Source of the DNA: a virus
Reading direction: 5' to 3' (one strand)
DNA length: 64,000 nucleotides
IMG/VR virus record: IMGVR_UViG_3300022554_000002
Location: 130,474-194,473 of that record
The position numbers were made by a program, and so were the translations under genes. Shown one piece after another: positions 6,020-54,200 of this stretch (position 1 is its first letter; each line of letters begins with the position of its first letter). The notes beneath the pieces are model-generated. The model was not told the origin of the DNA. It saw nothing but the letters and a program-made list of their open reading frames with translations, and did no database searches.

Positions 6020-7169
6020 TTACAAAATTGGTTTTGTTTTACGAATACCAGTTTCACACTCAATACAGATATTGTCATTTGGACGTACAGACTTAATACG
6101 CACTTTAGCACCACATTTACAACATTTGCCTTCAAACATATAAATTGTGGCTTTTAGTTTTCCATCACAGTAGAGAGTTGTATTATTCTGTCTCATTGAG
6201 TGCACTCTGTGCCTTATTAATTCTAGCATCCTCTAAAGTTTGAAATGATATTTCTCGTAAAGACCCTTTTAGTAATGGAAAATCTCGTCCGAACCCAACT
6301 CCGAACACTTTAATTTCAACAGAACTTGCACCTTCATCTACTTGGTATAATCCGGTAAATGAGCGTCTTTCATCCGGTCCTAACCCACGTAATCCAACTT
6401 TTGATTCAACACGAATAATATCACCTGTTTCACAATCTACAGGTTTTTGGTACCACATTCTTGTATATCGTTGTGCTAAAGGAGTTAAATAAATTCCTTC
6501 GTCATCTTTTTGAATTTCAACTTTAGAATCATTAATAAATATTTCCAACTTAGAACCTTCTTTCAGGTTCTTACAAAATCCAATTTGTACAAATATTTTA
6601 GTGCTCATTTAATTCTCAATAATGTTATTTTCTTCGTCATTAACAAAAGATAAAAATAAAAGAAATATGGCATTAGAAAATGTTTTTAAAAACCTATTGG
6701 GATGAAATAAAATTTCCCAAGTAAAAAATATTCGTAATTTCCAAGGAACAGTTTCAAATGTTAAAGGTTTTGCACTTTCAATAATTCGTTTTCGGTCAGC
6801 TTCAACTATTTGTTTAATTTTATTTACTATAATTTCCTGTCCCGTTACTTGCCCAACATTTCCTAATCCATAAATTTCTTTGGCTGTTTCTAACATTAAC
6901 TTAGTAGTGTAAACCATGTTGTTCTCATTTCTATTTTATGTTGCGTTAGATTCCTGTTCATTATCAATATGCCAATCTTCAATATCATAGTCGTAATCAT
7001 CTACAAAATCATCATAAATACCCTGCTGTTGTAATATCATAGTTTCTAACTCTTGTTTAAAGTCTATAATTTTTTCTAATACTTCTTTGTCAATTTCCTT
7101 ATGTCGTTTCATTTCATTTGTGGCCATACTTAACAGACTTACAATTTTTTGCTGTGATTCTGGTATCAT
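6020..7169 (-). CDS. Four hypothetical proteins (6020-6229 Zn-ribbon-like, 6183-6608, 6609-6917, 6936-7169)
   Basis: Tightly packed co-oriented ORFs; CxxC pairs in 6020-6229; no family recognised. Confidence 0.6.
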
Positions 7170-11967: not shown

Positions 11968-13019
11968 ACGTTTTCAACCACACTTGTTAAGTTTTTTGCA
12001 AAAATTTCTTCAGTATATTTCTCACGCTCATGTAATATGTTTTCTCTGAATTTTTTAGTTATTGCATTTTCATTGGAAAATAAATCATATGCAAACTCTA
12101 AATCGCGTTTAGTAAGATTAGCATCCTTATTTGGGTTAGTCATTAAGAAAGCATTGTCATCTGTTAAGACTTCATTAACACCATCTACTGTTGTCGCTGC
12201 AATAGGTAATCCCATTGCCATTGCTTCTAACAGTGCAATTGGAGTGCCTTCGTAGAAACTTGGCAAAATGAATGCATCAGCAGAAGCATAGATATCAGGC
12301 ATTACCTCTCTAACCATCTGCTCAATCATATGAATATTTGTATTTAATCCAGTATCCTGTAAAATGCTGTAAAGTTGATAATAATCCGTGCCATCGCCAA
12401 CCCAAATCCAATGTAAATTATTAAAGTTCTTTTCTTTTTCTCTAAGTTTATGAATTACATCAAGTTGGAGATGATATCCTTTTGTTCTGTCAGTTCTCGC
12501 AACAGTTAAAAATACTCGTGCTGTCTTGGGAATTTGAAGAACTTCACGTGCATAAAATGGGTCAGACGTTTTGTAACGATTTGTATTAAATTCTTTGTCA
12601 AAACAGGGGTAAATAACTACGCCTTTATCTTTTGGTAATCCTAAATCCTGTAATGATTTAAGTGTGTTTTGACTAACTGCAATAACTTCCTCTGCACCTT
12701 TCAAGGCACATTCCACCCATGCTTTATCATTGCAGACTTCTTTATACTGTTCTGGAACTAAATGAGCCACAGAAACATAAGGAATACCCACTAGAATAGC
12801 TTTTGTCTTTTCAAGTTTATTTGATTCTGGTGATTTGTCACTGAATATGATTAAATCTGGTGTGACATGCTCTAACAATGAGACGAAATTTCTACGGTCC
12901 TTATCAGACCATGAAAAGGTCAGTTTATATTGTGCCTCTAAATTTCGACACGCTGCCTCATTCCAAACTTGAATACCATATTTAGGATAGTCTGTGTAGA
13001 TTAATATGTTTTTACTCAT
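11946..13019 (-). CDS. Glycosyltransferase family 4 (GT-B)
   Basis: IAVSQ, VIYP, FLTVAR...KG, ADAFILPSFYEGTPIALLEAMAMGLPI. Confidence 0.9.
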   Translation of the reverse strand: MSKNILIYTDYPKYGIQVWNEAACRNLEAQYKLTFSWSDKDRRNFVSLLEHVTPDLIIFSDKSPESNKLEKTKAILVGIPYVSVAHLVPEQYKEVCNDKAWVECALKGAEEVIAVSQNTLKSLQDLGLPKDKGVVIYPCFDKEFNTNRYKTSDPFYAREVLQIPKTARVFLTVARTDRTKGYHLQLDVIHKLREKEKNFNNLHWIWVGDGTDYYQLYSILQDTGLNTNIHMIEQMVREVMPDIYASADAFILPSFYEGTPIALLEAMAMGLPIAATTVDGVNEVLTDDNAFLMTNPNKDANLTKRDLEFAYDLFSNENAITKKFRENILHEREKYTEEIFAKNLTSVVENVWKNSVS

Positions 13020-13606
13020 TTAGCCTTTCCAGTAGATTTTTCCTTGTTTCGGTTAATTTTTCCTTATAAAGACCTAAAGACAAGTAATAATCTATTTTAG
13101 CAATTGCATTTTTAATGTCTTTTATTTTATTTCCACCTAGTTTGGGTTGACTCTTTAATTCTCGTTTAGTCCTTCTAGCAGCAAAATTTAAATAATTTAT
13201 AACATGAAAATCATCTTTAGTATATGTATGTTCTATTTTGTCTTCTACGTATCCACCAGAAAGTCGTCTATCTTCCTTTGCAGCTATTACCATTCCAAGA
13301 GGATACAACATTAAATATTCGTCAGTTGATTCATCCCACAAACTACACTTCTCCCTCACAGGAGAATATAAACTAGTTGGTATGCTCGTTATCATTATTT
13401 AATTCTTTCAATAGATTAGATAATTGTGCTAAAGCTTCTTTTTTAGTTGTAAATTCACCAAGATAGAAATTTTCCCTGTCCGTTGAATTTGGGTAATAAA
13501 ACTCAGCAAGAATGAAGAATTTATTTTCATTTGCAGTTGCAACACGAAGTTGCCCTATGTACCGAGTATTTATCAATGTTTCATTTGTAGTCACTAACCA
13601 TTTCAT
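13012..13606 (-). CDS. Two hypothetical proteins (13012-13395, 13373-13606)
   Basis: Co-oriented overlapping ORFs. Confidence 0.55.
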
Positions 13607-16262: not shown

Positions 16263-17541
16263 AGTATGACGGTCGTGATTTACTTCTTACTCTCTTCATT
16301 GGTCTTGGTTTTATTACCCAAATTCCTCTGAGAGTCTTTGTTTATCCTCTGCCGTGAATCCTCACGGTGGAGTAAGGCAAAAGCTTTTATGTTTTTCGCT
16401 GCATTAATATCTCGATCATGGAAAGTGTTACATTTAGCACATGTCCATTCTCTGTGTTGTAACTTTAGGTTTTTATTTATTTCTCCACAAACTGAACATA
16501 TTTTGCTACTTGGTTTAAATTGTCCTATAAATAAGAGATTTCTACCATACCATTCTGATTTATAAGTTAGCTGGCGTTTAAACTCATACCAACTAACATT
16601 ACTTATAGCTTTGGCTAATTTATGATTTTTTAACATATCTGTAATATTTAAATCTTCTAAGCAAATTGTTTGGTTCTCACGAATTAGCTTAGTAGACAAT
16701 TTTTGCAAAAAATCATATTTTTGATTCGTAATTTTTTCATAAATTTTTGCTACAATGAGTTTTTGTTTTTCTCTGTTTTTGCTTCCTTTCTGTTTTTTAT
16801 TGAACATTCGTTGATGATGTTTTAGTCTTTTTTCTTGTTTATTAAAATATTTAGGATTTGTAATTTTATCACCATTTGAAGTTACACAAATATCTTTAAG
16901 TCCCAAATCTATACCAATTGTTGTATTGCTTACAATGGGTGGTTTAGTGGGAATTGGTTCACCAGTATCAACTAGTATACAAGCAAAGTATTTATTTGTT
17001 TTTGTTTTTACAATGGTTGTAGTTTTAATCTTACCTGTAAATTGTCTATGAAAAACACATTTAATATTTGGAATTTTCATAATGTGTAATAAACTATTAT
17101 TAAAATCTACTTTTGTATATTGAGGGCATTGAAATGTTTGTTTTTTATTTTTAGATTTAAATACTGGAAATTTTGCTTTGTTATTATTAAAATTTGTGAA
17201 AGCATTATCAAGATTCATAAGAGCCATCATTACTGCTTGACTATTTACTACTTTTAACCAGGGTAATTCCTGTTTTAATTTTGGTAGTTGTTTTTTAATT
17301 TCATAACAAGTGATTTTTTTGTTTTCTGCTTGGGTTTTAAGTCGTTGTTCTAGCCCCCAATTATAAATATATCTACAACACCCAAAATGCTGCCCTAAAA
17401 ATTTCTTTTGTTTTTCTGTAGGATATATTTTATATTTATAAGTTTTTAACATTTAGAGAATCTTTATCCCCTTTCTAAGTATATAATCTAGTTTTTTATA
17501 AAAAATAGAGGGAAATGGTTAATTTAAATAGTATGACGGTC
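16263..17541 (-). mobile_element. Non-autonomous tnpB element (no tnpA) bounded by 12-bp direct repeats
   Basis: AGTATGACGGTC at 16263-16274 and 17530-17541. Right-end-like TCAC on the minus strand at 16278-16275, just after the stop codon. Confidence 0.65.
16280..17452 (-). CDS. tnpB: TnpB RNA-guided endonuclease (IS200/IS605 OrfB)
   Basis: N-terminal YKYKIYPT helix-turn-helix, RuvC-I GIDLG, RuvC-II ICLEDL, Zn finger CSVCG...CAKC, RuvC-III DRDINAAKNI. All three catalytic acidic residues are present. Confidence 0.95.
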   Translation of the reverse strand: MLKTYKYKIYPTEKQKKFLGQHFGCCRYIYNWGLEQRLKTQAENKKITCYEIKKQLPKLKQELPWLKVVNSQAVMMALMNLDNAFTNFNNNKAKFPVFKSKNKKQTFQCPQYTKVDFNNSLLHIMKIPNIKCVFHRQFTGKIKTTTIVKTKTNKYFACILVDTGEPIPTKPPIVSNTTIGIDLGLKDICVTSNGDKITNPKYFNKQEKRLKHHQRMFNKKQKGSKNREKQKLIVAKIYEKITNQKYDFLQKLSTKLIRENQTICLEDLNITDMLKNHKLAKAISNVSWYEFKRQLTYKSEWYGRNLLFIGQFKPSSKICSVCGEINKNLKLQHREWTCAKCNTFHDRDINAAKNIKAFALLHREDSRQRINKDSQRNLGNKTKTNEESKK

Positions 17542-45252: not shown

Positions 45253-45422
45253 GGGGGTGTAGCCTAGAGGACAGGCGATACTTGCGTATTATGGCAAGTG
45301 AGTATAATGACTGCGCTAACAGCATTATATAAACTGCGATAATGCAAAAAACAGGTAACTAATAGCTTTAGCGAGTTATTACTATCTGCGTATAGACGCT
45401 GGTTCGATTCCAGCCACCCCCT
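45253..45422 (+). ncRNA. tRNA-like RNA with a roughly 105-nt structured insert replacing the anticodon loop
   Basis: Acceptor GGGGGTG/CACCCCC, D-arm GCCT-AGAGGAC-AGGC, T-arm GCTGG-TTCGATT-CCAGC; own promoter upstream. Confidence 0.8.
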
Positions 45423-50550: not shown

Positions 50551-50965
50551 TTAGTTTTATCCATCCTGCCCCAACAAGCCTATGACAGTTACCACATAAA
50601 CAAATACATTTCTCAATTTCTTTTAATAAAATATCTTTTTTACAAGAAGTTCTACTAAAACAAAAATCAAATAATTTTTTAGATGGGTCTTTATGATGAA
50701 AGTCAATACAAATTTTTTCAGACTCTCCGCAAACTACACAAGGTGTTTTCTGATTATTTACAAACTGTTTAAGTTTTTGTCTATATTCTAATTTATATTG
50801 TTTTTGTTTTTCAGAAATTTGTCTTTTTTTCCATTTATGTTTATTCTTTTTATAATAGTTGCGCATATAAATACGCATATAATTGTTATAACAATATTTA
50901 CAGATTGTCGGTTTTTTAAATTCAAAGTCTTCAAAATTTTTTTTACATTTGCTACAAAGTTTCAT
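50537..50965 (-). CDS. HNH endonuclease (paralog)
   Basis: CVVCG...IDFHH...CICLCGNCHR. Confidence 0.85.
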   Translation of the reverse strand: MKLCSKCKKNFEDFEFKKPTICKYCYNNYMRIYMRNYYKKNKHKWKKRQISEKQKQYKLEYRQKLKQFVNNQKTPCVVCGESEKICIDFHHKDPSKKLFDFCFSRTSCKKDILLKEIEKCICLCGNCHRLVGAGWIKLNETM

Positions 50966-51076
50966 TTTGTCTCTCCTAAAAGAATATAATCCTAAAAAGA
51001 CTCGAAACAGGAGAAGATTCTTAACCTCTCAAATAATTTTTCTTGACAAGTGAGACTTAGTTTGTATAATAGAAAT

Positions 51077-51231
51077 GGGCAGTCTGATGACGTGAGGAAT
51101 TACGACCACTAGTAGCAAAGTAGCCTAGTACAAAGTTGGCTGAATTTCCTTGGTCGGAACGTTCAGAACTTAACTAGGTGAAAGGCCATACTAGGTAGTT
51201 CTCCATTGAGGGTCTGATTCCCTCATGCCCT
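51077..51231 (+). ncRNA. Degenerate tRNA-like RNA with multi-hairpin insert
   Basis: Begins at the predicted +1 of promoter 51043/51065; GGGCA...TGCCC closing stem; T-arm-like GAGGG-TCTGATT-CCCTC; internal stems ACTAG/CTAGT and AGAACT/AGTTCT. Confidence 0.6.
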
Positions 51232-51265
51232 TAAAAAGGATCGTGTAAATAAAAGGAATAATAAA

Positions 51266-54200
51266 ATGACTGAAGAACTTGAAAGAGAAGTTATTGCGTT
51301 GTTAAAAGAAATTACTTCTTATAACAATATTTTTTCAGCAAAAGCTGAAAAGATTCTAAGTGAGCTAAAAGGTATTAAGGCTATTATTTTCAATGTGGGT
51401 ACTGATACTCTTGATGAATATGAATTAGAGAAGCTTTATCTAAAAGCTGATGATGTAGTAATTTATAAGTATGAACAGGGTGCATATGATGGTAATGGAA
51501 TTATTGTAGTTAAACACGGTAATGGTTCTGTACAATATGCAAATCTTGGTCATTGCTCATGTTATGGTCCTACTGACCAAGTAACATGGAGTGACATTTC
51601 ATTAGAGGCTTTACTTGATAATAAAGACGACCTTGGTCGCCGACGTACTCCAAACGATTATGATTACAGTATGTGGAATGTTATTTGTGAAAAAGCTAGA
51701 GAGATTTGGAGCTAATATAAAATAAAGGAGAAACAAAATCATGGCAAATGTTGAATTTAGCAACAATAGGATTCGTGAAGTAACCGCGAAAGAAATGAAA
51801 AATGGTCAGGTTGGAGTTATTACAAGTAGTGAGGGTACTTCAGGTAATTTTACTGGACGTGTTGTTATGAAAATTCATGATGATATGTTAGTTTTGCTTG
51901 ATAATGGTGATTTTTGGCGTTACGCAAGTGAAATGCGTATTAAAATTCATATTTTTGATAAAAATGAACCTGTTGTATTAACTAACTAAAAATAATTAAT
52001 TTTCTCTTGACAAAATGGAATTAGCCTGTATAATTTAACTAAGGAGAGGAATCATGAAAATTATGCTTCGTGTTGGTGACACCGTGCAGTGGTATAAGAA
52101 TACTGCGGTACATAGGATTACAAAGATTGAAGATGGTAAGATTTATTATCATGATACTACCAATAACTATGATACAAAGAACGCCGTCATTAATGCCATT
52201 AAAGATGGTTTTATGTTCAAATATACACCAGTTAAGGTAAAGAAGGAGAAGAAGGTAGAAAATAAAGTTATCAAGCTGGCAAATATTCCTTCAGTTTTGA
52301 AAAAGTCTAATGGCAAGATTTTCACAGTTGCATTCTATAAGCGTTCTGACGGTTCAGTGCGTGTAATGAATGCTAGATTGAAGGTTCAAAAGAATCTCAC
52401 TGGTCAAGGCATGTCATATAATGCCAAGAACTATAACCTTATGACTGTCTTTGACATGCAGAAGAACGATTACCGTACTGTGGACCTTACTACTGTTATT
52501 TGGGCAAAGGTTAATGGCAAGATGTATACCGTTGACATGCTAGATTTGACTTTTAGTACTGCACGATAGTTGTAAAACAGACTAGAACGCTATTGGTGGT
52601 AACTTCTAGTCTGATTATACCTCCTGAGAAGTTAGTGCAAATTATGAGGAATTGCACAAACCGCCATAGCTTCTCAGATTAGATAATGGCATACTGGCCC
52701 ATCCAAGGCAAGTATGCCATTTTTATTTGTAGTAATTCTTCTTGACAAACCATAGTTCAGTCTGTATAATATCAATAGGAGATAACAAATATGCTAAAGA
52801 TAATTAAAAAGGGAAAGATACCAAACCAAGACAAAGAAGTAACTTGTGGGTATTGTAACACAGTTTTTACATATAATCAAGAAGATGTTGAATGTGACGA
52901 CAGACCTTGTGCAATGCCTTTTGTTATTTGTCCTTTGTGTGGAAAACATGTGAAAACTATGTAAGGACAATAAAATGAAGATGGAATATAACAAGTATGG
53001 AGTGTTGACGGGTGAAGGCAGAGAATTAAAAGATAAGATTATGTCATTGTTGAAAACAGAGATTAAAAGCAATTGTGAAGATATGACTAATGTGGACCTT
53101 CGTTTGCTTGAGCAGGAACTTACTACATCTTTGAACGCTTTTTTTGGTGAGCAAAGGTTGATGAAAGCTACAAAACTACACATGCAAGAACGAAAAGAAT
53201 CACACTAATGCCATACAAAGGCTACTCTGAATCCGGTGTAGAGAAGAAACAAGGTTTCAGTGTTGAACTTATTGGTGGTCCTTTTGATGGTGATAAACGA
53301 ACTATTACTCACCCCAAAATTGGAACTACCCTATATTTCTCATTTAATAATAGGTATACTGCGACCTATAAATTTAAGGTTAAGAACAGGAAATTCTTTG
53401 CATACTATGATGGAGGTTATAAGACAAAATGACTAAACAAGAAAAAGAAAGACATAGTGCTGATTTAACTAAAGCCGAAGAAAAGCTTAAAGAACTTGAA
53501 TTAGCTACAAAACGAATTGGTTTGTTTGAACTATCACAAGAACTACAATATATTAGAGGTAGTGTTTCTTTTACGGCTTATATATTAAAAGGAGAGATTG
53601 AAAAATGAATATAACAGATAAATTCGGAAAGATACTACAATTATTGGCAGAAATTAGACAAGACATTGTTAGTGAAGAGCCTAAAATGGTTAATCCTCAT
53701 AAACGTTGGGCCAATCAAGCAATTAGTGATTTAAAAGAACTAGAGCGAGTTTTAGCTAGTGATTTTGCAATTATGACAAAGGTTGACACAGTAATTCCTA
53801 CTATCACTGAACTTAGGGAAAAATGGAATAGGAAGGACGTATAATGGACTTCTTTTTACTTTGTATAACAATTATGGTCTTTAATATAGTCTACGTTGCT
53901 GGACCTATGCTTGCAATAAGCAAAATGAAAGAAGTCCCTTGGACACGAACTTGGAATATTAAAAGTTTCAGTTTACTTGTATATCTGCTAGGATTACAGA
54001 TATATGCTCTTTTGTTTTTGTTACCCAATTTTTATAGATAATAATTCTTGACATTTGGGTTGGAGGCTTGTATAATGAGAAATAAGAAAGGTAGGAAAAA
54101 GAAAATGACTAAGCAAGCCGAAAACGCAAAGACGGGTGCTGCTGCTATGGCACATAGCACGTATAATCGGAAAACTGTAATTGATTCCAATAAGCGTGAA

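What the first reader, a model, noticed from the sequence alone, without database searches (positions are those of the whole stretch)
51077..51231. Second tRNA-scaffold RNA with a different multi-stem insert
Seen: transcript predicted to start exactly at GGGCA; D-like CGT-GAGGAATT-ACG; domains closed by GACC/GGTC and AGAACT/AGTTCT; T-like arm with loop TCTGATT; ATGCCC end; 154 nt and no ORF. Inference: a tRNA-derived structured ncRNA unrelated in sequence to the one at 45253.
Basis: partly seen in the sequence, partly recalled or inferred. Interest (0 to 1): 0.7.

Follow-up and report, generated by a model that had tools for sequence, protein, structure and literature searches.

The report
Conserved structured phage leader RNA
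A 155-base RNA at the very start of an early phage transcript folds into a four-way junction with a long rod. That fold is kept by compensating mutations in a second phage, so the RNA is real and matches no described family, but nothing tested shows it derives from a tRNA.

Summary
The element begins 7 nt after a perfect TTGACA-16-TATAAT promoter in a 194-kb sediment phage.

A homologue was found in a second phage lineage (L005:884-1039), behind its own promoter with the same spacing. The two RNAs are 82% identical, while neighbouring genes are 68-76% identical at the DNA level.

All 17 substitutions in paired columns keep pairing: 8 are double compensatory changes and no pair is broken. Random placement of the same substitutions broke 9.6 pairs on average and never zero in 100,000 trials.

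The supported fold is a junction of four helices with no linker bases. It has a closing stem, a 3-bp mini-hairpin, a 115-nt rod and a 6-bp hairpin with loop UCUGAUU.

No tRNA, tmRNA or Rfam model matches. There is no CCA, and the stem lengths are not those of a tRNA.

The RNA travels with a 149-aa gene as an accessory cassette that is absent from a close relative. Its function is unknown. My best guess is a leader or protein-binding platform for that cassette. Only two lineages are known.

The parts
51043..51070 (+). Early promoter: TTGACA, 16-nt spacer ending in TG, TATAAT. The likely transcription start is G51077, 7 nt after the -10 box.
   Evidence: 12 of 12 match. The homologue has the same layout at L005:852-879, again with a 6-nt gap before the RNA. 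It is one of 31 perfect promoters on this strand of the genome.
51077..51231 (+). The structured RNA, RNA positions 1-155: four helices meeting at one junction with no linker bases.
   Evidence: MFE z = -3.9. Consensus fold of 44 pairs with 8 double compensatory changes and none broken. Permutation tests.
51078..51081 (+). P1, the closing stem, 5' strand (GGCA). It pairs with 51226-51229 (TGCC). In the window G51077-C51230 adds a fifth pair; in the homologue that position is an A/A mismatch.
   Evidence: The four pairs never vary, so they carry no covariation.
51082..51091 (+). P2, a mini-hairpin GTC-TGAT-GAC (3 bp). It contains CTGATGA. GTCTGA recurs at 51212-51217.
   Evidence: Predicted in both sequences. 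The stem is invariant, so it is unsupported by covariation. This segment is also complementary to 51159-51167.
51092..51206 (+). P3, a 115-nt rod. Its helices are 51092-94/51204-06, 51098-103/51195-200, 51109-14/51189-94, 51123-29/51173-79, 51133-37/51167-71 and 51146-49/51156-59.
   Evidence: Seven of the eight compensatory double changes lie here. The homologue folded on its own gives the same architecture.
51104..51108 (+). A 5-nt bulge, GACCA, invariant in both lineages and fully complementary to the apical loop.
   Evidence: Complementarity of this length between unpaired segments arises in 18% of loop shuffles, so it is only a lead.
51119..51122 (+). AGTA facing GAA (51180-51182) in the large internal loop. 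This is the sequence signature of a sarcin-ricin / loop-E (bulged-G) motif, next to helix 51123-29/51173-79.
   Evidence: Invariant in both sequences. Assigning the motif is my inference from the known AGUA/GAA consensus; it was not tested.
51150..51155 (+). Apical hexaloop TTGGTC, invariant.
51207..51225 (+). P4, the T-like hairpin: a 6-bp stem (TGAGGG/CCCTCA) with the 7-nt loop TCTGATT.
   Evidence: A51209-T51223 becomes G-C in the homologue. The loop is invariant.
51233..51242 (+). Conserved tail AAAAAGGATC. In the homologue it is the ribosome-binding site of a 39-aa arginine/lysine-rich ORF. In the window it is followed only by GTG-TAA.
51266..51715 (+). ORF149, co-transcribed with the RNA and co-inherited with it. 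It has a conserved GHCSCYGP motif and belongs to a widespread phage family of unknown function.
   Evidence: AlphaFold model with pLDDT 94. Its core resembles ribosome hibernation factors only weakly, at Z 5-6.

Best explanation
Shown: this is a genuine RNA-level element, read from the plus strand. It starts at the +1 of a strong early promoter of a 194-kb phage. It folds into a self-contained domain: a closing stem, a mini-hairpin, a 115-nt rod with conserved internal loops, and a 6-bp hairpin with a 7-nt loop, all meeting at one junction. It is inherited together with the next gene (ORF149) as an accessory cassette.

Inferred: it is not a tRNA derivative. It most likely works in cis or as a ribonucleoprotein platform at the 5' end of the cassette's transcript. 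Its base-paired 5' end would protect the transcript. Its invariant loops (GACCA bulge, AGUA/GAA loop, UUGGUC apical loop, the two GUCUGA sites) would be binding sites for a protein. Candidates are ORF149, the small basic peptide encoded behind the RNA in the other lineage, or a host factor. Binding would set translation from the ribosome-binding site that lies 3 nt behind the closing stem (7 nt to its GGA core).
For: - Promoter and +1 spacing are identical in both lineages.
- The leader is 189 nt, whereas most of the other perfect promoters of the genome are followed within about 10-45 nt by a ribosome-binding site and start codon, and one directly by a tRNA.
- The homologue is 82% identical (128 of 156). 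The local alignment gives 85% over 142 nt, against 68-76% for the flanking genes.
- The consensus fold has 44 pairs, 8 double compensatory changes, 1 G-U/G-C change and none broken. Sliding the partners by 1-3 columns gives 0 compensatory pairs.
- Randomly placing the same 28 substitutions breaks 9.6 pairs on average, and never 0 in 100,000 trials.
- Using the fold of the window sequence alone, 5 of 55 pairs break, against 11.9 +/- 2.0 expected (P = 0.00085).
- G-U pairs and the better fold of the plus strand point to RNA rather than DNA.
- No terminator follows the RNA, so it is co-transcribed with ORF149.
- Cassette behaviour: a relative with a 68%-identical RNA ligase and the same flanking genes has the promoter directly before the WYL_2 gene, with neither the RNA nor ORF149. 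The same site holds other cargo in L028 and L029.
- The tail AAAAAGGATC is conserved directly behind the closing stem.
Against: - Only two lineages are known, so no helix can be tested with R-scape-type statistics, and P1, P2 and the first three rod pairs never vary.
- There are no expression data, so the ends are inferred.
- The cis-regulatory or protein-binding step has no direct support. No pairing that hides the ribosome-binding site is conserved.
- In the other lineage a different small ORF, not ORF149's homologue, follows the RNA.
- Two distant ORF149 relatives checked (E about 1e-17 to 1e-18) have upstream gaps of only about 70-105 nt, too short for such an RNA.
- Loops as conserved as these would fit a trans-acting RNA equally well.
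Confidence: 0.45

Rival explanations
1. A stand-alone, trans-acting non-coding RNA. The 155-nt domain is cut from the early transcript and accumulates as a stable RNA that binds a host or phage target, for example as a decoy or scaffold used in host takeover or anti-defence. It may act as a homo-oligomer through bulge-loop kissing.
For: The 5' and 3' ends pair with each other, giving a closed, autonomous domain. The loops are as conserved as the stems: 11 substitutions in 68 unpaired columns against 17 in 88 paired columns. The RNA is better conserved than the adjacent protein genes. It sits in a variable early region typical of accessory genes. The invariant GACCA bulge is complementary to the invariant UUGGUC loop, about 38 bp away along the rod. 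Phage-associated RNAs under 200 nt can form RNA-only assemblies (bioRxiv 10.64898/2026.07.01.735769; PMC12286853).
Against: No terminator or recognisable processing site defines a 3' end. The RNA always shares a promoter with ORF149. The bulge-loop complementarity is not significant (18% of shuffles).
Confidence: 0.28
2. One reading: a tRNA-derived scaffold. An acceptor stem, D-like arm and T-like arm frame an inserted multi-stem domain, and the RNA is handled by tRNA enzymes such as RNase P, RNase Z, the CCA-adding enzyme or the phage RNA ligases.
For: Four helices meet at one junction, and a terminal stem stacks on a hairpin with a 7-nt loop whose first, fourth and fifth bases (U, G, A) fit a T-loop. 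The region also carries tRNA genes and two RNA ligases.
Against: No tRNA, tmRNA or other hit from ARAGORN or from Rfam at E up to 10. The stack is 11 bp in the window and 10 bp in the homologue, not 12. Loop positions 55 and 56 are CU, not UC. There is no CCA and no 5' leader for RNase P. The 'D loop' bases covary with 51195-51200. A relative keeps the Rnl1-type ligase but lacks the RNA.
Confidence: 0.06
3. An mRNA processing and stability element only. The long irregular hairpin is an RNase III site, as in T7 or SP82 early transcripts, and the paired 5' end is a 5' stabiliser. There is no specific ligand.
For: A rod of about 35 bp with internal loops, placed right after an early promoter. The 5' end is paired from +1 or +2.
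Against: A processing hairpin needs neither a four-way junction nor six invariant loops. None of the other 30 perfect early promoters of this genome carries anything similar.
Confidence: 0.1
4. A riboswitch whose aptamer senses a small molecule and controls translation from the ribosome-binding site behind P1.
For: A multi-helix junction closed by P1, with a ribosome-binding site starting 3 nt behind it (7 nt to its GGA core), conserved unpaired bases, and alternative pairings that also survive the substitutions.
Against: No match to any Rfam riboswitch. It is extremely rare (two lineages). The conserved bases are spread along a rod rather than clustered around the junction. No conserved sequestering helix was found. 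ORF149 has no metabolic annotation.
Confidence: 0.07

Closest known systems
tRNA and tRNA-like structures (Rfam clan CL00001, including the tRNA-like domain of tmRNA, and YrlA Y-RNA-like RNAs)
   Same: Four helices at one junction. A terminal stem formed by the two ends stacks on a hairpin with a 7-nt loop that has U, purine and A at T-loop positions 54, 57 and 58.
   Different: No covariance-model or ARAGORN hit. The stack is 10-11 bp, not 12. There are no junction linker bases, no supported D arm, no anticodon arm and no CCA. The phage has no Ro60/TROVE gene.
phi29 packaging RNA (pRNA, Rfam RF00044)
   Same: A phage RNA of similar size transcribed from an early promoter.
   Different: No Rfam hit. 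The genome is 194 kb with direct terminal repeats, not a phi29-like one. The complementarity is invariant, so it carries no covariation, and it is not significant. The junction has four helices rather than three.
raiA motif RNA (Rfam RF03072; PMC10861870, PMC12968392)
   Same: A highly structured RNA of unknown function placed upstream of a gene. Here that gene's product has, weakly, the fold of the RaiA/HPF ribosome hibernation factors.
   Different: No sequence or structure match in Rfam. The fold similarity of ORF149 is only Z 5-6. This RNA is found in two phage lineages, raiA in thousands of bacterial species.
Autoregulatory leaders and translational operators (ribosomal-protein leaders, T4 gene 32 and regA operators)
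   Same: A structured 5' leader directly before a ribosome-binding site, co-inherited with the gene it precedes.
   Different: It is much larger and more elaborate than the known phage operators. Binding by the encoded protein has not been tested.
RNase III processing sites and 5' stabilisers of phage early mRNAs (T7 R sites, SP82)
   Same: A long irregular hairpin right after an early promoter, with a paired 5' end.
   Different: It has a four-way junction and invariant loops, and it is unique in the genome rather than repeated between genes.

Membership tests
tRNA / tRNA-like (Rfam RF00005, clan CL00001) | Recognised by tRNA or tmRNA covariance models or by ARAGORN | tested here: not met
   ARAGORN finds only tRNA-Lys and tRNA-Ile elsewhere in the window. 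Rfam at gathering scores and at E up to 10 on 50950-51350 gives no tRNA or tmRNA hit. The same holds for the homologue.
tRNA / tRNA-like (Rfam RF00005, clan CL00001) | 7-bp acceptor stem stacked on a 5-bp T stem (12 bp), with linker bases at positions 8, 9 and 26 | tested here: not met
   P1 plus P4 is 5+6 bp in the window and 4+6 bp in L005. The junction has no linker bases.
tRNA / tRNA-like (Rfam RF00005, clan CL00001) | T-loop consensus U54-U55-C56-R57-A58 | tested here: not met
   The loop is UCUGAUU in both lineages. U54, G57 and A58 fit; positions 55 and 56 are C and U.
tRNA / tRNA-like (Rfam RF00005, clan CL00001) | A D arm supported as a helix | tested here: not met
The CGU/ACG stem never varies. 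Bases 22-27 of its 'loop' pair with 119-124, with two compensatory double changes.
tRNA / tRNA-like (Rfam RF00005, clan CL00001) | A 3' CCA end, or processing by RNase P, RNase Z or the CCA-adding enzyme | not testable with these tools
   No CCA is encoded: the tail is CUUAAAAAGG in the window and AUGAAAAAGG in the homologue. Enzymatic processing needs a bench test.
Y RNA-like (YrlA) | A Ro60 (TROVE) gene in the same genome, and a match to a Y RNA model | tested here: not met
   PF05731 is absent from the complete 194-kb genome, while the controls were positive. No Rfam hit.
phi29 pRNA (RF00044) | Model match, a phi29-like genome, and interlocking loops supported by covariation | tested here: not met
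   No Rfam hit. The genome is 194 kb with terminal repeats. The complementary loops are invariant, with P = 0.18 by shuffling.
raiA motif RNA (RF03072) | Match to the model; commonly lies upstream of raiA/HPF genes | tested here: not met
   No hit at E up to 10. ORF149's similarity to the HPF fold is weak, Z 4.1-5.9 for about 12 hibernation-factor chains.
Riboswitch | An aptamer plus a conserved expression platform that hides the ribosome-binding site or forms a terminator | tested here: inconclusive
   No terminator. No conserved helix of 5 bp or more covers the GGA of the ribosome-binding site except weak options that include G-U pairs. Ligand binding cannot be tested here.

The most novel reading that the evidence does not exclude
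The RNA is an autonomous phage non-coding RNA that assembles with itself. The invariant 5-nt bulge GACCA (51104-51108) and the invariant apical loop UUGGUC (51150-51155) lie about 38 bp apart on a stiff rod, so they can only pair between molecules. That would give antiparallel dimers or rings, as in phi29 pRNA or the RNA-only assemblies recently described for short phage-associated motifs. A related possibility is a two-state switch. The same concerted substitutions in four CUAG boxes, and at positions 23, 60, 92 and 123, keep both the rod fold and most of an alternative multi-hairpin fold pairable.
Probability: 0.1. Interest if true: 0.75.

Novelty: new variant of a known kind. Interest (0 to 1): 0.45.

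Why it matters
Structured RNAs encoded by phages are few and mostly unexplained. This one has a defined start and a fold backed by compensatory changes. Its six invariant loops are obvious binding sites, and it has a fixed partner gene from a large phage protein family of unknown function. It is short enough for chemical probing, gel-shift assays and cryo-EM, and it sits in an early-region hotspot where host-takeover and anti-defence cassettes are exchanged. Working out what it binds could assign a function to both the RNA and the GHCSCYGP protein family. The result also corrects the 'tRNA scaffold' label, and with it weakens the idea that this RNA forms one system with the phage's RNA ligases.

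Tried and rejected
**Family and homologue searches**
- Rfam at gathering scores and at E up to 10: only chance snoRNA-like rows caused by UGAUGA and CUGA.
- GenBank phages by megablast, blastn and tblastn: nothing related.
- Pattern scans of conserved blocks in viral contigs found nothing or one match inside a coding region.
- Pattern scans of metagenome contigs gave 3 hits and genome contigs 4 hits, all at the chance rate. They lack stem complementarity and were rejected by the covariance model.
- Covariance model R1 on the whole genome and on relatives found through the RNA ligase (L017, L018, L024-L027 and their full records): no homologue. The best row (L027, E 0.76) lies inside a 655-aa ATPase gene.
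- Relatives of a virus record cannot be drawn by the genome search.

**Neighbouring genes used as probes**
- Distant ORF149 relatives P0003 and P0004 have only 70-105 nt upstream.
- Variants of the upstream ORF (L028-L030) carry other cargo and no RNA.

**Expression**
- No RNA holder listed among public sequencing runs. The only full DNA holder is a sediment metagenome that may be the source sample.

**Readings considered and dropped**
- A C/D-box kink-turn reading of UGAUGA and CUGA was rejected: the CUGA lies in the loop of a covarying hairpin, 8 nt from the terminal stem.
- A hammerhead reading of CUGAUGA was rejected: no GAAA follows the adjacent stem.
- An intramolecular GACCA/UGGUC pseudoknot was judged sterically unlikely in the rod fold.
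- Pfam found no family for ORF149. Foldseek against PDB found nothing at E 0.001 or better.

Full report
**Where it lies.** The window is the last 64 kb of a complete 194,473-bp IMG/VR phage record with direct terminal repeats. The only full DNA holder among public runs is a sediment metagenome. From about 44 kb onward the plus strand carries an early-type region of small ORFs. It also holds tRNA-Lys and tRNA-Ile, a group I intron, two HNH genes and two RNA ligases. The genome has 31 perfect TTGACA-N16-18-TATAAT promoters on this strand.

**Checking the observation.**
- The promoter at 51043-51070 ends 6 nt before G51077.
- No ORF of 20 aa or more lies inside the element.
- ORF149 starts at 51266, so the leader is 189 nt. 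Most of the other perfect promoters are followed by a ribosome-binding site and start codon within about 10-45 nt, and one directly by a tRNA.
- The plus strand folds to -56.7 kcal/mol, z = -3.9, with 0 of 200 shuffles as good. The minus strand gives -47.0 kcal/mol, z = -2.6.

**A homologue.**
- ORF149 has one near-identical copy on a 188-kb ENA contig (L008) and one 55%-identical relative, P0002, on short sediment-type contigs L002-L007.
- In L005 a promoter with the same 16-nt spacer, TG extension and 6-nt gap (852-879) is followed by a clear homologue of the RNA at 884-1039.
- The two RNAs align without gaps and share 128 of 156 bases.
- By blastn this is the best-conserved stretch of the shared neighbourhood: 85% over 142 nt, against 68-76% for coding DNA.

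**The fold.**
- RNAalifold gives 44 pairs in nine helices: P1 (2-5/150-153), P2 (6-8/13-15), a long arm P3 (16-130, six helices) and P4 (131-136/144-149, loop UCUGAUU). No unpaired bases separate the four arms.
- Of the 28 substitutions, 17 fall in paired columns and every one preserves pairing. There are eight double compensatory changes, including U-G to G-U and A-U to U-A, plus one G-U to G-C change and no broken pair. Sliding the partners by 1-3 columns gives none.
- Placing the same substitutions at random breaks 9.6 pairs on average and never zero in 100,000 trials.
- To avoid circularity I repeated the test with the fold of the window sequence alone. Five of 55 pairs break in L005, against 11.9 +/- 2.0 expected (P = 0.00085).
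- L005 folded on its own gives the same architecture.
- Three consensus pairs depend on G-U, which together with the strand asymmetry indicates an RNA read from the plus strand.

- The D-like hairpin, GACC/GGTC and AGAACT/AGTTCT can be drawn, but forcing them costs about 21 kcal/mol in both sequences.
- That scheme has 31 pairs with 4 double changes and 3 broken cells.
- The bases of the supposed D loop instead pair with 119-124, with two compensatory changes.
- One oddity remains. The four CUAG boxes changed in concert (G to A in boxes 1 and 3, C to U in boxes 2 and 4), so both box1:box4 with box2:box3 (the rod) and box1:box2 with box3:box4 (local hairpins) stay paired. Position 123 is likewise compensated on both possible partners. 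This may reflect a co-transcriptional intermediate or a switch, or it may be a by-product of palindromic boxes. Two sequences cannot decide.

**Is it tRNA-derived?**
- No test supports this. ARAGORN and Rfam give no tRNA, tmRNA or any other hit, even at E up to 10.
- The terminal-stem plus hairpin stack is 11 bp in the window and 10 bp in L005. Loop positions 55 and 56 are CU. No CCA is encoded. Transcription starts at the first base of P1, so there is no leader for RNase P.
- A Y-RNA-like reading fails because the phage has no TROVE gene.
- What remains is a cloverleaf-like topology.

**Conserved unpaired parts.** Six loops are invariant: the bulge GACCA, GCAAAGUA facing GAAAG, the apical UUGGUC, CGUUCAG, CUC and UCUGAUU.
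- AGUA facing GAA next to a helix is the signature of a bulged-G (sarcin-ricin / loop E) motif. This is my inference from the established consensus and was not tested. If it holds, the rod is stiff at that point.
- The bulge and the apical loop are fully complementary but about 38 bp apart, which would permit only intermolecular pairing. Such complementarity arises in 18% of loop shuffles, so it is a lead only.
- GUCUGA occurs both in P2 and in the P4 loop.
- Positions 7-17 are complementary to 83-91.

**Distribution.**
- The RNA and ORF149 behave as one cassette. L017, whose Rnl1-type ligase is 68% identical and whose flanking genes match, has the promoter directly in front of the WYL_2 gene, with neither the RNA nor ORF149.
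- The same site holds a NUDIX gene in L029 and other sequence in L028.
- L017 therefore keeps the ligase without the RNA, which argues against an obligatory RNA-ligase system.
- No further homologue was found by pattern scans of three collections or by the covariance model on all relatives reachable here.

**The partner gene.**
- ORF149 belongs to a large family of 100-130-aa phage proteins: 604 representatives at E 0.001 or better, with invariant H, S, C and P inside a GHCSCYGP motif. It has no Pfam family.
- A confident model (pLDDT 94) has a beta-alpha-beta-beta-beta-alpha core. Its best structural neighbours are ribosome hibernation factors (HPF, YfiA, pY, RafH): about a dozen chains at Z 4.1-5.9, with Foldseek probability 0.96 for one. 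At these scores this may be only a common arrangement.
- In L005 a 39-aa arginine/lysine-rich ORF lies between the RNA and the ORF149 homologue. It uses the conserved AAAAAGGAUC as its ribosome-binding site. In the window the same motif is followed by GUG-UAA.

**Mechanism.**
- Shown: a promoter-proximal, plus-strand, structurally conserved RNA domain that is co-inherited with ORF149.
- Inferred, and my preferred reading (0.45): a 5'-terminal platform that protects the transcript through its paired 5' end and binds a protein at its invariant loops, setting expression of the cassette.
- Rivals: a processed trans-acting or self-assembling RNA (0.28), a pure RNase III / stabiliser element (0.10), a riboswitch (0.07), and a tRNA-derived scaffold (0.06).

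**Novelty.** No described RNA family matches. The general kind, a structured phage leader or non-coding RNA, is known. With only two lineages and no functional data, interest is moderate.

Noticed in passing
L005:1053-1172, compared with window 51233-51248: In the second lineage a 39-aa ORF rich in arginine and lysine (MTIKRMKWDFRKNRLRSLRRLKKFRR...) lies between the RNA and the ORF149 homologue. It uses the conserved AAAAAGGAUC as its ribosome-binding site. In the window the same motif is followed only by GTG-TAA. The peptide could bind RNA.
   Followed up: partly
window 51266-51715: ORF149 belongs to a large phage protein family (604 representatives) with an almost invariant GHCSCYGP motif and no Pfam family. 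Its confidently modelled core resembles ribosome hibernation factors (HPF, YfiA, pY) at Z 4.1-5.9.
   Followed up: partly
window 51109-51113, 51124-51129, 51172-51177, 51189-51194: Four CUAG boxes in the RNA changed in concert between the two lineages (G to A in two boxes, C to U in the other two). Two mutually exclusive pairing schemes both stay intact as a result.
   Followed up: partly
L017:7003-7055; L029:1498-1580; L028:425-700: The site just downstream of a conserved 66-69-aa ORF varies between relatives. It holds the RNA plus ORF149 cassette in L005, nothing in L017, a NUDIX gene in L029, and other sequence in L028.
   Followed up: partly
G000:C1:5837-5900 and 12070-12135 (outside the window): Two early promoters share a 51-nt block that is 92% identical. 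It covers the promoter and a short leader beginning AAAGGTTAG and continuing to AATTACC, a small repeated leader hairpin.
   Followed up: partly
window 16280-17452 (minus strand): An IS605 OrfB / TnpB-like gene (OrfB_IS605 plus Cas12f1-like TNB domains) sits inside the phage genome.
   Followed up: no
L017:5202-5272, 6588-6675, 13281-13373: In the relative L017 three tRNA genes sit in the syntenic early region. The first two start within about 15-45 nt of strong early promoters, as tRNA-Lys does in the window.
   Followed up: no
G000:C1:13101-13174 (outside the window): ARAGORN reports a tRNA-like gene with an undetermined anticodon.
   Followed up: no
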